Positions 716 to 6,358 of a stretch of DNA of 6,863 nt are shown here, piece by piece (within the stretch, counting starts at the first letter, position 1; every line of letters begins with the position of its first letter). The stretch is taken from assembly GCF_006345805.1 (NCBI RefSeq), contig NW_021829024.1, positions 1 through 6,863 of the forward strand. Reading direction: 5' to 3'. This DNA comes from Octopus sinensis. Its lineage: Eukaryota. Under the pieces are notes generated by a model. It searched no databases. It saw nothing but the letters and a program-made list of their open reading frames with translations, and had not been told where the DNA came from. The position numbers and the translations under genes were made by a program.

Positions 716-725
716 TATATATATA

Positions 726-779
<54 letters not shown>

Positions 780-870
780 ATATAGTAATCTATATATATA
801 TATAATATATATATATATTTATATATATATATAATGTATATATATATAGATATACTATATATAGATATAT
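716..870. repeat. Interrupted (TA)n microsatellite
   Basis: Long TA dinucleotide run with point interruptions. Confidence 0.97.
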
Positions 871-927
871 AACTTTGATGAGGGTTCGGCATTATTGGCC
901 CAGGCCATGGTCTAACTTAATAGCACC

Positions 928-972
928 ATATGATATATATATATATTATTATATATATATATATATTATATA

Positions 973-1018
<46 letters not shown>

Positions 1019-1057
1019 CTATATATATAATATATATATATATATGTATATATATAT
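928..1057. repeat. Interrupted (TA)n microsatellite
   Basis: Long TA dinucleotide run with point interruptions. Confidence 0.97.
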
Positions 1058-1058
1058 T

Positions 1059-1229
1059 GATAGAAATGGTAAGACAAACAAAAGAATGAAAGAGACCTCG
1101 GTATTATGTAAATAGAGGAATTATCTGTAAATATAATAATTAATATTACAGCAAAAACTGTCTGATGAACGGCAACGAGAAACTCAAAGAGTAACAGATT
1201 TTGTTGAATTTCTGCTGCTCTTAAATAAA

Positions 1230-1230
<1 letters not shown>
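1059..1230. mobile_element. Short complex island between (TA)n tracts; probable Penelope-like element (pseudo-LTR) or retrozyme remnant
   Basis: About 170 bp of non-repetitive sequence bounded on both sides by (TA)n and carrying a type I hammerhead. Hammerheads in animal genomes are commonly associated with Penelope-like elements and retrozymes. The family assignment is inference. Confidence 0.5.
1149..1206 (+). ncRNA. Type I hammerhead ribozyme
   Basis: Core CTGATGA (1162-1168) and GAAA (1179-1182). Helix II CG-GCAA-CG (1170-1177). Helix III ACTC-AAA-GAGT (1182-1192). Cleavage triplet GUA (cut after 1193). Helix I CAGCAAAAACTGT (1149-1161) pairs with ACAGATTTTGTTG (1194-1206) at 12 of 13 positions, including one G-U. 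Confidence 0.85.
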
Positions 1231-1231
<1 letters not shown>

Positions 1232-1271
<40 letters not shown>

Positions 1272-1317
1272 GATATATATATATATGTATATGTGTTGTG
1301 TGTGTGTGTGTCTGTGT
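1232..1317. repeat. Compound (TA)n-(TG)n microsatellite
   Basis: TA run grading into a TG run. Confidence 0.95.
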
Positions 1318-1701
1318 ACGGTAGTGCTTTGTTTAGCGCTCTAGATACGTTCCTAAAAACGCATCTCTTCATGAAACAACATTATACGCAGTGTTTATAA
1401 TATAGAAATAGAGAGACAAGTTTACGAACGCAAATTGTAAGTAAAAAAGATTCAACGTCTCAGCCTCCCTATATTTAATAAATTCAGATAATCCCAATCG
1501 AAATGTTATTACAATTTTGTGATCATGAGTTATAATGAAATTAGAAAAGAAGAATAATTCAATTATGTTACTTAATTATATTTAAACGAATTAAATTAGT
1601 GAAATTTAATCACTCCTGCACAGATCTAATCAGTCTAAAAGGAAGCGAAACCAAAATGATGCAGTATTCCTTTCTCTACAAACTAAACCCTTTTTCTGCA
1701 G

Positions 1702-1788
1702 GGACTTCATCGTGCCATGATGTCAGATTTTGTCCATTTTCAGAAGCCGATGCGAGTTACTCCTGAAGTTTTCTTTGCACAATCAGAT
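1702..1788 (+). CDS. Candidate internal coding exon, 87 nt, phase 0-0, peptide GLHRAMMSDFVHFQKPMRVTPEVFFAQSD; product unknown
   Basis: Branch-point-like ACTAAAC (1682-1688), pyrimidine tract and acceptor CCCTTTTTCTGCAG (AG at 1700-1701), and donor GAT|GTTAGT at 1789. Length is divisible by 3, only frame 0 is stop-free, and the segment is more GC-rich than its flanks. No homology recognised. Confidence 0.45.
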
Positions 1789-2060
1789 GTTAGTTTACCT
1801 GGAAAGAAACAATATAGTTATTAATAAGAGGAGTTGAAATTACTGTATGCAAAATTTCACGGCTCTAGCATCATTCTTTCATAATCAGCCTATGATCTTT
1901 TCAGCCTATTCTCTTAATCCCGATAATCCATAAATGTTGTAAATATAGTCTAAGAGTGATGAGTAGATTAGAGATAAATGTTATTTTGTTTAAGACATTG
2001 GTCTTTTTGCAGTTATTCCTTAATTGCACCTATTTCCCACAACGAAGCGAGCTTCGTTAA

Positions 2061-2200
2061 TCTATAATAATAAAAGCGAAATTCTGTCCGTCCGTCTGGG
2101 ACCCCTGTATCTCAGTCTACATTTGCTCTATATAGACATAGTATACCTTTTTGGAATCAGGACGATCCAGGGATTGAAAACTTACCCTTCATTTGGTTCT
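2061..2200 (+). mobile_element. 5' terminal region of a non-autonomous Helitron (3' extent uncertain, possibly to CTAG at 2940-2943)
   Basis: A|TCTATAATAATAAAAG start (5'-TC after a target A) followed by short (TCCG/TCTG) repeats, typical of small Helitron-N elements. It resembles the 5' end of the 4068-5533 element (TCTCTTATTATAAAAG). Confidence 0.55.
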
Positions 2201-2454
2201 TAAAAGACTTAAAAGCATTTGAGTTGTTATTTCTAGCAGGTAAAGCTTGATACATTCACGCCATCTTGGTGGCGTTTGTCAGATGACATCAGAGATCAAG
2301 GGGGCAGATTGATGACATTCGCTTCGTCGAGATAAGAAATTTGGAACAAACTGGCCAACAGTTGGAATTCAGCTTGGGACTCGAACACTAGAATGATTGC
2401 ATTGCATTGCAAAATTAATTTTTATCCATCCTCAACCTCTGATCAGATACCACC

Positions 2455-4067: not shown

Positions 4068-4937
4068 CTAGCAGTATCGCCCGGCGTTGCTCGGGTTTGT
4101 TTCGACCCGCTGGAATTGTAATTTTGAAAAGTAAAAATTTTGTGAACATTTTTCTGGTCGAAATACACCGAAAAGTGGCGACACAGCAGTGAAAAAATCG
4201 TAAAAAATAGGGATTTTCATAGAAAAAAGCATCTTTTTGATGTAAATAATTTTTGGTGTTAACATGGTCCGATTGATTTTATGTTCTACGGAAGGAAGAG
4301 CAACCCTTCTTCTTCTACATACTCTCAATTTTGGTCAACTTGCGCCGCAGGGTCTCGGAGGAGATAGTGTTTAGTTGAAGGTTACCATTCTAGGTGCCTG
4401 AGTAACAACCTCGCGGATTTACAGATAAATGAATTAATTACTATTTTACAGAATAAAATTAAATAATTCTTGAAAATTAATTAATATTAATATTTTTGAA
4501 CAAAGTAAATAATTTTTTAAAACTTAAATAAAATTTTTTTATACAAACGCGAACGGGGAAAAGGGGGTGGCGAATTCGATTTACATACCTAAATTTTTTC
4601 TTTTTCATGACATTGTAGCAAAATAGTAGTGAATTATAAATAAATACCAGCAGTACATTTTTTTTTCTGGGGTATTTTTTTCAACCTCTCACATATTTGC
4701 CCTTTCAATTTAAACAAAGTCTTAATTAAGCAATTACGGCAGCTTAGCAATGGTTTCATAATACAGGCGTGACATCTGTATCTCAATTGTTCAAAACCCT
4801 TCGAATTTTTTCGCACTTGATGATATCATAGTGAAAACTTCAGTTTTTCTGTCTTTCACTCTGTCGGTCTCTTTACACACACACTAAACAACAAGCCTCT
4901 ACACTTACACACCACACTTTCTGTGTCGCACAACCTC

Positions 4938-4979
<42 letters not shown>

Positions 4980-5533
4980 ACACTCACGCACGCACACATG
5001 TACATCAATGCTTTCGGAGTGAAATGTTAAAATATTGAGTTTTCTCGAATTTTGTCTTAATTGGGGGTGAAATTGAAAGAAATATATTATGGCAATGAGC
5101 GAATGGAGTACTTTGAAAATCTTAGGAGGTAAATTCTAATTGAAGAAATTGTGTGAGGAGTAATCGTTATGTATTTATTATTTCTGTTTGCTGTGTTTTT
5201 TATTTTTTGAGTAGTGGTTTAAATACTTTCTGTTTAGTCTTCCTCAAATCACTCTGTCGCTATTTACTTTCATTTTATTCGTTGCACACTGTGGTGTGCG
5301 TTTGCGTGTGGTGTAAACCAGACTAAGAAAAGCATTTGACACACACACCAGAATGTGAGTTTTCTGTAATTTTGCTTAATTGGAGTTTAAATTTTTAAAA
5401 ACTGGACCTGGCATGACCCGATGCATTCTACTCTTAAAAATGCTAGGTAAATTGTAATTGAAGAAATCCTATATTGTAGATTTCTATAACTCCCAAAGGG
5501 AGGCAGATAAAATCTGCCTTTTATAATAAGAGA
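4068..5533 (-). mobile_element. Non-autonomous Helitron, ~1.47 kb, both termini present, no RepHel ORF
   Basis: On the - strand: A|TCTCTTATTATAAAAG at 5533 (5'-TC). The 3' end reads CCCGAGCAACGCCGGG (GC hairpin, 4095-4080), then CGATACTG, then CTAG|T (4071-4068). Insertion is between A and T with no target-site duplication, the canonical Helitron signature. Pairing the two ends into one element is inference. Confidence 0.75.
4939..4978. repeat. (AC)20 microsatellite within the Helitron
   Basis: Direct count; degenerate CA units on both flanks. Confidence 0.97.
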
Positions 5534-5618: not shown

Positions 5619-5631
5619 GCTGTTATATATC

Positions 5632-5794
5632 GTAGCATTCCGTCGATTACGACGATGTGGGTTCCAGTTAATCCGATCAGCGAAACAGCCTGCTCTTGGA
5701 ATTAATATGCAGGAGGCTGAGCACTCCACAGACTCGTGTACCCTTAATGTAATTCTCGGGGAGATTCAGCGTGACACAGAATATAACAGAATAT
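5632..5794 (-). mobile_element. 3' part of a SINE (octopus family as recalled)
   Basis: ...GGAGTGCTCAGCC...GAGCAGGCTGTTTCGCTGATCGGATTAACTGGAACCC... matches my recollection of a high-copy octopus SINE 3' body. A simple-repeat tail follows. Confidence 0.6.
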
Positions 5795-5799
5795 GATAA

Positions 5800-5952
5800 G
5801 GATTAAGTCGTCGACCCCAGTGCGTAACTGGTACTTATTTAATTGACCCCGAAAAAATGAAATGCGGAAATTGAACTCAGAACGTAACGGCAGACGAAAT
5901 ACCGCTACGCATTTCGGTCGGCGTGCTAACGATTCTACCAGCTCGCAGCCCT
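5800..5952 (-). mobile_element. 5' part of a tRNA-derived SINE with Pol III boxes and a conserved central-domain-like segment
   Basis: On the - strand: GGGCTGCGAGC, A-box-like TGGTAGAATCG (5940-5930), B-box-like GAGTTCAATTTCC (5878-5866), then TTTCATTTTTTCGGGGTCAATTAAATAAGTACCAG. Confidence 0.8.
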
Positions 5953-6323: not shown

Positions 6324-6358
6324 GTTTTACGTTTCGAGCAAAGCTCTTCTTCAGAAAC
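6324..6358 (-). ncRNA. Minimal type I hammerhead ribozyme of the Penelope-like-element kind
   Basis: The - strand reads GTTT CTGAAGA A GAGC-TTT-GCTC GAAA CG TA AAAC. Intact core, 4-bp helix II, palindromic ACGT in place of helix III, GUA cleavage triplet, and 4-bp helix I GTTT/AAAC. Confidence 0.65.

What the first reader, a model, noticed from the sequence alone, without database searches (positions are those of the whole stretch)
1149..1206. Well-formed type I hammerhead ribozyme hidden between (TA)n microsatellites
Seen: both core motifs (CUGAUGA, GAAA), a GUA cleavage triplet, a perfect 4-bp helix III hairpin, a GNRA-capped 2-bp helix II, and a 13-position helix I with a single A-A mismatch. 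Established: this is the type I hammerhead topology found in Penelope-like elements and retrozymes. Inference: with a stable helix III it could cleave as a monomer, unlike minimal Penelope hammerheads. The first helix II position is A1169-A1178 instead of a purine-pyrimidine pair, which may lower activity. It is on the same strand as the candidate exon ~500 nt downstream, so it could sit in an intron of a sense transcript.
Basis: partly seen in the sequence, partly recalled or inferred. Interest (0 to 1): 0.75.

Follow-up and report, generated by a model that had tools for sequence, protein, structure and literature searches.

The report
Truncated Penelope retrotransposon hammerhead relic
The hammerhead-ribozyme motif is really there, but it is an 81-base leftover end of a jumping gene that carries the same motif in thousands of copies in this animal genome, where it is predicted to cut only as a pair, so this copy is ordinary and its 'stronger' stem is a private two-letter oddity.

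Summary
The type I hammerhead at 1149-1206 is as described and above chance. It is the terminal-repeat (pLTR) ribozyme of a young Penelope-like retrotransposon with Hydra-clade hallmarks. G000 holds 3,302 exact core matches with a palindromic helix III (ACUC-N-GAGU) against 11 with a 3-nt loop; the window's loop is unique among those 11. In 9 of 20 full-length loci this hammerhead stands on both sides of an RT-endonuclease frame, 3.3-3.4 kb apart. The window keeps only the last 81 bases, ending at the family's usual short end in (TA)n. The family form folds as a double hammerhead, not alone (P 6e-5). The window's two extra bases make the monomer fold the minimum only in a trimmed RNA; seven more downstream bases form a rival hairpin that abolishes it. 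The stretch where the 'exon' would lie is a dispersed repeat. A second Penelope-type hammerhead lies at 6324-6358 (-). This scan has already reported Hydra-clade hammerhead ends on other DNA of this genome. New member of a known kind; cleavage untested.

The parts
1149..1206 (+). Type I hammerhead motif (helix I arms 1149-1161 and 1194-1206)
1162..1168 (+). Core CUGAUGA (C3-A9)
1169..1178 (+). Helix II: A.A at 10.1/11.1, two pairs, GCAA loop; same as in the young subfamily
1179..1193 (+). G12-A13-A14, helix III (1182-1192) and predicted cut after A1193
   Evidence: cut site inferred from hammerhead numbering, not tested
1186..1188 (+). Loop III AAA: two bases longer than the family's 1-nt loop; private to this copy (mutation or assembly error)
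1150..1230 (+). 5'-truncated 3' end (pLTR) of Hydra-type Penelope-like family A; stops at the family's short end, 37 nt after the cut site
1189..1222 (+). Predicted rival hairpin that sequesters the cut site and the 3' arm of helix I
   Evidence: prediction
1231..1292 (.). (TA)n target flank, right
1058..1138 (-). Inverted 3' tail of a second high-copy hammerhead-bearing family (B), cut off before its own hammerhead
716..1057 (.). (TA)n-rich flank, left (interrupted)
6324..6358 (-). Second, unrelated minimal Penelope-type hammerhead (family C), not part of the finding

Best explanation
This is the hammerhead-bearing 3' end of a Penelope-like retrotransposon family with thousands of copies in the genome, likely of the Hydra clade, and the window's copy is an 81-base truncated piece that is likely inert. 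Shown: the same motif sits on both sides of a 711-aa RT plus GIY-YIG frame in full-length copies; copies end in (TA)n 37 or 108 bases after the predicted cut; the window ends at the 37 site. Inferred: the element's protein nicked the (TA)n tract, began reverse transcription at the +37 site of an RNA not cut at this hammerhead, and stopped 12 bases upstream of the core. Predicted: in the element's own RNA one hammerhead cannot close helix III; two, 3.3-3.4 kb apart or on two RNAs, pair through the palindrome ACUC-A-GAGU into a double hammerhead that would cut slowly after GUA, perhaps with help from the element's protein. The window's two extra loop bases arose after or during insertion, or in assembly; they would allow monomer folding only until the next 10-16 bases are transcribed.
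For: 3,302 exact matches with a 1-nt loop vs 11 with a 3-nt loop, controls 0. Hammerhead on both sides of the frame in 9 of 20 protein-hit loci and in L072. 7 frames of 705-712 aa read from Met; four of them differ by 0.8-2.2% in DNA. 17 of 18 3' hammerheads end at +37 (9) or +108 (8) into (TA)n. 31 of 37 inverted arm pairs join one short and one long end (counted by hand; the short side is partly chosen by my query). Protein motifs RLRWK, DKT, YRDD, C-terminal VVY...YTG, CxxC and CxH match the Hydra diagnostics in PMC8557442 section 11; the published Hydra-2_aMil hammerhead has the same helix I, core, helix III arms and cut triplet (supplement table). Family monomer P(hammerhead fold) 6e-5; two copies co-fold into the double hammerhead. 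In 7 of the 10 other +2 loci a partner arm lies in the same insertion and none of the 7 carries the +2. Contigs of 4 of 4 independent runs show the two bases left out at 1186. PMC4209133: single metazoan minimal hammerheads did not cleave, dimers weakly, an extended helix III only at non-physiological Mg2+. PMC11167929: insertion used uncut RNA, ribozyme needed the protein.
Against: No cleavage data for this family. Covariation across 33 aligned copies is not above shuffles (score 36 of 500; pairs 164 of 500), and helix III and one arm of helix I were fixed by my search pattern. Pfam and PDB sequence searches gave no hit for the protein, so RT and endonuclease rest on motifs, homologs and the paper. 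The CxCX5C linker is intact in only 1 of 12 frames examined. No tree against reference Hydra proteins was built. The co-fold gain for the family dimer is small (-2.2 kcal/mol over two monomers). The unit (3.3-3.4 kb) and tail (71 nt) are longer than the published norms (<3 kb; 30-40 bp).
Confidence: 0.88

Rival explanations
1. The two extra bases are real and turn this copy into a ribozyme that cleaves on its own in a read-through transcript, co-transcriptionally, before the rival hairpin forms.
For: Hammerhead fold is the minimum for 1149-1206 and 1140-1215, P(fold) 0.24, helix III pairs 0.73-0.81. Core and triplet are intact.
Against: Fold lost once 1216-1222 is present (gap 3.4-4.1 kcal/mol; 7.9 with the upstream flank). 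No G10.1-C11.1 pair. No gene or promoter shown; the downstream 'exon' stretch is a repeat. An engineered version of this design cleaved only at non-physiological Mg2+ (PMC4209133).
Confidence: 0.06
2. The two extra bases (and the neighbouring indels) are a consensus error of this contig, and the real locus has the ordinary family hammerhead. This changes only the detail, not the identity of the element.
For: The window arm has 3 gap openings in 82 nt (3.66 per 100) vs 0.41 per 100 in 91 arms on chromosome-scale contigs and 0.91 in 22 arms on small contigs (both sets include loci chosen for the +2). The neighbouring family-B piece also shows 1-nt indels at 1076 and 1120. 4 of the 11 +2 matches lie on high-numbered contigs.
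Against: 7 of the 11 +2 matches lie on chromosome-scale contigs, so slippage at the AG repeat also seems to occur in real copies. One arm is a small sample.
Confidence: 0.35
3. The hammerhead belongs to a non-coding tandem retrozyme (170-400 nt units, circular RNA).
For: Type I topology and many short copies without a frame.
Against: No tandem unit in the window; short copies are head-to-head pairs or single truncated ends with the same 3' ends as full-length coding copies.
Confidence: 0.03
4. Chance match to a loose descriptor in AT-rich DNA.
For: No Rfam hammerhead hit; z only -1.95.
Against: 0 of 500 shuffles at this strength; thousands of copies at the pLTR position; near-identity to a published Hydra hammerhead.
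Confidence: 0.01

Closest known systems
Hydra clade of C-terminal-endonuclease Penelope-like elements (Craig et al. 2021, PMC8557442; seen: abstract, passages, section 11, supplement part 2 of 59 and search hits), nearest hammerhead Hydra-2_aMil
   Same: Single RT-GIY-YIG frame; RWK, DKT, CxxC and CxH motifs; (TA)n insertion; hammerhead in the pLTR with stem I ctgt/acag, core ctgatga, stem III actc-n-gagt and GUA cut; unpaired base pair at the foot of helix II occurs in several listed Hydra hammerheads; tail on one end only.
   Different: Not Hydra-1_Obim: its listed hammerhead and protein differ, and three peptide motifs and the core DNA of this family were not found in the supplement text (long runs there are cut, so absence is weak). 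Helix II is only 2 pairs; unit 3.3-3.4 kb; tail 71 nt; linker second Cys replaced in 11 of 12 frames.
Minimal metazoan PLE hammerheads (Cervera and de la Pena 2014, PMC4209133; seen: parts 1-2 of 4 of the text)
   Same: Type I, in pLTRs about 3 kb apart, pairs on opposite strands close together, palindromic 15.2-16.2 and loop 3, predicted dimer.
   Different: Lacks the usual bulge after A9 with G10.1-C11.1 and the long helix II; helix I is longer. The window copy resembles their engineered extended-helix-III monomer.
PAc, Poseidon element of the green anole (Frangieh et al. 2024, PMC11167929; seen: parts 1-2 of 4)
   Same: Two 3' ends downstream of the hammerhead defining a tail; AT-rich target.
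   Different: Other clade; there the frame starts inside the hammerhead, here the ATG lies about 205 nt after the core start.
Animal non-LTR retrozymes (PMC7229834, passages seen; bioRxiv 10.64898/2026.07.22.740005, part 1 of 5 seen)
   Same: Type I hammerhead; weak helix III works as dimer.
   Different: Those are tandem non-coding units; this is a truncated end of a coding element.

Membership tests
Type I hammerhead ribozyme | Core C3-U4-G5-A6-N7-G8-A9, G12-A13-A14, A15.1-U16.1 and NUH triplet | tested here: met
Type I hammerhead ribozyme | Helix I open, helices II and III closed | tested here: met
Type I hammerhead ribozyme | Purine-pyrimidine pair (usually G-C) at 10.1-11.1 | tested here: not met
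   A1169.A1178; an older subfamily has A-U (488 matches with non-A at 11.1); mismatches here also occur in published Hydra hammerheads, so this lowers expected activity, not the family link
Type I hammerhead ribozyme | Covariation of helices | tested here: inconclusive
   36 of 500 shuffles reach the score; search pattern fixed several columns
Type I hammerhead ribozyme | Rfam hammerhead model match | tested here: not met
   none among 22 matches at E<=10
Type I hammerhead ribozyme | Self-cleavage after H17 | not testable with these tools
   needs an in vitro assay or raw RNA ends
Penelope-like element (EN+) | Single frame with RT then GIY-YIG endonuclease | tested here: met
   (motifs); homologs, one carrying PF01541; direct Pfam scan blank
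Penelope-like element (EN+) | pLTRs in direct and inverted arrangement, 5' truncation, tail on one end | tested here: met
Penelope-like element (EN+) | Hammerhead in the pLTR | tested here: met
   9 of 20 loci with sense hammerhead on both sides of the frame
Hydra clade | RWK motif and DKT in place of DKG | tested here: met
   RLRWK at 35, DKT at 113
Hydra clade | CxCX5C linker | tested here: inconclusive
   intact in 1 of 12 frames, second Cys replaced in 11; CxC kept in all 20 rows of the homolog alignment
Hydra clade | CxxC and CxH around the conserved E and N; no CCHH inside the endonuclease | tested here: met
   (absence of CCHH judged by eye from the sequence)
Hydra clade | Insertion into (TA)n | tested here: met
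Hydra clade | Placement in the RT phylogeny | not tested
   reference proteins were not available as stored sequences
Non-LTR retrozyme | Head-to-tail tandem non-coding units each with a hammerhead | tested here: not met

The most novel reading that the evidence does not exclude
The most recently expanded subfamily has a worn-down hammerhead (A.A at the foot of a 2-pair helix II, where an older subfamily has A-U) and has also lost a linker cysteine, yet reached over 3,000 copies with near-identical open frames; so either cleavage is dispensable for Penelope spread or it is supplied by dimer and protein help. Two-base slips in loop III then repeatedly create natural monomer-type variants such as this one, a few of which could cut host read-through RNA on their own.
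Probability: 0.12. Interest if true: 0.4.

Novelty: new member of a known kind. Interest (0 to 1): 0.17.

Why it matters
For this copy, little: it is one of thousands of truncated ends. The family has modest value: several open 711-aa frames within 1-2% of each other give a likely recently active Hydra-type element, a clade known only from sequence in the papers I read, and its natural series (A-U vs A.A helix II; 1-nt vs 3-nt loop III) is a ready test of whether Penelope hammerheads need to cut at all.

Tried and rejected
Rfam scan: no hammerhead model matched. Pfam and PDB sequence searches of the protein: blank. Expression: no RNA holder listed; only contigs were available, so cut ends could not be read. 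Independent support for the two extra bases and for the 1138-1149 junction: no listed contig of 4 runs bridges them, and 1110-1145 had no cover at 98% likeness (123 pieces not shown); a hole proves nothing. Covariation test: not significant. Idea that the locus is one chimeric insertion of a family-B long arm and a family-A short arm: the junction occurs once in G000, and L047 shows family A simply inserted next to a complete family-B insertion, so two separate insertions into one TA tract are preferred. Retrozyme and Naiad readings rejected (no tandem units; endonuclease is C-terminal). Look-up of earlier findings by sequence was blank; the permuted hammerheads listed are other elements. Paper searches: 'hammerhead ribozyme'+'octopus', 'hammerhead'+'ribozyme'+'cephalopod', 'Penelope'/'cephalopod'/'Hydra clade' gave no description of this family; PMC13282606 (passages) counts Penelope families but never mentions hammerhead or Hydra. 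Repbase/Dfam could not be searched, and only part 2 of 59 plus search hits of the PMC8557442 supplement were seen, so the family may be catalogued there.

Full report
Observation. The fold is the minimum-energy structure of 1145-1210 but only at z -1.95, and Rfam lists no hammerhead among 22 matches. A descriptor null is more telling: 4 of 500 shuffles of the window give any relaxed hit and 0 of 500 one this complete.

What it belongs to. The pattern with the window's 3-nt loop III has 11 matches in G000; ten read AGA, only the window reads AAA. The same pattern with a 1-nt loop has 3,302 matches, control 0 (the free positions also admit older subfamilies). So the family form is ACUC-N-GAGU, a palindrome. 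Stretches taken between neighbouring matches showed hammerhead-frame-hammerhead in L072 and a 723-codon open frame with an inverted truncated arm in L073. A protein search gave 63 matches among 62 scored candidates of 32,760. In 9 of the 20 loci fetched, a sense hammerhead stands on both sides of the frame, 3.3-3.4 kb apart, with the ATG about 205 nt after the first core. Seven frames read 705-712 aa from Met, and four differ by 0.8-2.2% in DNA: a young family.

Clade. The protein has RLRWK, DKT, YRDD, a C-terminal VVY...YTG endonuclease motif, CxxC and CxH, which are the Hydra diagnostics given in section 11 of PMC8557442; copies insert in (TA)n as Hydra elements do. The supplement's hammerhead table lists Hydra-2_aMil with the same helix I, core, helix III arms and cut triplet. 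Against a clean call: the CxCX5C linker is intact in only 1 of 12 frames, Pfam and PDB searches were blank, and I built no tree. The listed Hydra-1_Obim is a different family. That the genome is an octopus is my recall from the repeat landscape and was not tested.

The window's copy. It matches the family from 1150 to 1230 and then runs into (TA)n. Of 18 3' hammerheads in the protein-hit loci, 9 end 37 nt after the predicted cut, 8 end 108 nt after it and 1 elsewhere; 31 of 37 inverted arm pairs join one short and one long end (hand count, short side partly chosen by my query). The window ends at the short site and starts 12 nt upstream of the core, so it has no frame and no upstream pLTR. Because inserted copies extend past the cut site, the template was likely uncut there or re-joined; PMC11167929 reports the same for the anole element, with two RT start sites defining a tail, uncut RNA as the main substrate and a protein-dependent ribozyme. 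On its left, 1058-1138 is the inverted tail of a second high-copy hammerhead-bearing family, cut before its own ribozyme; this junction is unique in G000.

Monomer or dimer. The family 56-mer has P 6e-5 of the hammerhead fold, and two copies co-fold into a double hammerhead with an 8-pair intermolecular helix III, though by only -2.2 kcal/mol. But adding 1216-1222 lets a hairpin at 1189-1222 win by 3.4-4.1 kcal/mol (7.9 with the upstream flank), and helix III probability falls to 0.0. The ten AGA-loop variants are not predicted to fold either (helix III 0.02 in the one tested). In 7 of those 10 loci the partner arm of the same insertion is present, and none of the 7 has the extra bases, so they are one-off slips, not a subfamily. 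Contigs from 4 of 4 independent runs show the two bases left out. The window arm is indel-rich (3 gap openings in 82 nt vs 0.41 per 100 nt in 91 arms on large contigs), so an assembly error is a live possibility. PMC4209133 found no cleavage by a single metazoan minimal hammerhead, weak cleavage by dimers, and cleavage of an extended-helix-III monomer mostly at non-physiological Mg2+. PMC544870 (passages) shows short helix II is tolerated when G10.1-C11.1 is kept, which this family lacks.

Helix II history. 488 matches have a base other than A at 11.1, most listed ones A-U with a GGAA loop; these look more diverged and so older (inference). Pair counts on 33 aligned copies did not exceed shuffles (36 of 500), so covariation is not shown.

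Host context. The stretch 1683-1916 matches 39 other places at 79-83% among 40 scored of 1,947 candidates, so the likely 'candidate exon' is a dispersed repeat; no gene was shown. A second minimal hammerhead of another family lies at 6324-6358 on the minus strand, with 455 exact pattern matches in G000. Such motifs are common litter here.

Verdict. A real hammerhead motif, the ordinary pLTR ribozyme of a Hydra-type Penelope-like element, in a truncated and likely inert copy with a private two-base change. Earlier notes of this scan reached the same class for other pieces of this genome; I reached my reading before seeing them and do not count them as support. New member of a known kind; interest 0.17.

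Noticed in passing
window 6324-6358 (-): Second minimal Penelope-type hammerhead (4-pair helix I, bulged A after A9, G-C-closed 4-pair helix II, ACGU palindrome); 455 exact pattern matches in G000.
   Followed up: partly
window 1058-1138 (-); L013, L018, L030: Tail of another high-copy family whose hammerhead has a long helix II region; L018/L030 hold a GIY-YIG-like frame with CxxC and CxH near it, so likely a second Hydra-type family.
   Followed up: partly
L115-L126, L131: The second cysteine of the CxCX5C linker is replaced in 11 of 12 frames of the young subfamily, though kept in all 19 aligned homologs; these copies still insert in (TA)n.
   Followed up: partly
L031-L132 (37 arm pairs): Inverted two-arm insertions nearly always join one +37 end and one +108 end; the tail is 71 nt, about twice the 30-40 bp published for other Penelope elements.
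   Followed up: partly
L047:1179-1582: A family-A end sits directly on the short end of a complete family-B two-arm insertion; a similar junction appears as a loose end in runs X4 and X7.
   Followed up: no
window 1683-1916: Dispersed repeat of about 230 nt, 79-83% like at least 39 other places; type not determined.
   Followed up: partly
window about 2060-2400 (+) and 4070-5530 (-): Ends resemble non-autonomous Helitron-like elements (recalled resemblance, no call).
   Followed up: no
window about 2460-2820 and 5620-5950: Look like SINE-type repeats (recalled resemblance, no call).
   Followed up: no
protein search: At least 2,091 relatives at 43-58% identity among the best 120, almost all unnamed and on short contigs; the clade is far larger than the few dozen published families.
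   Followed up: no
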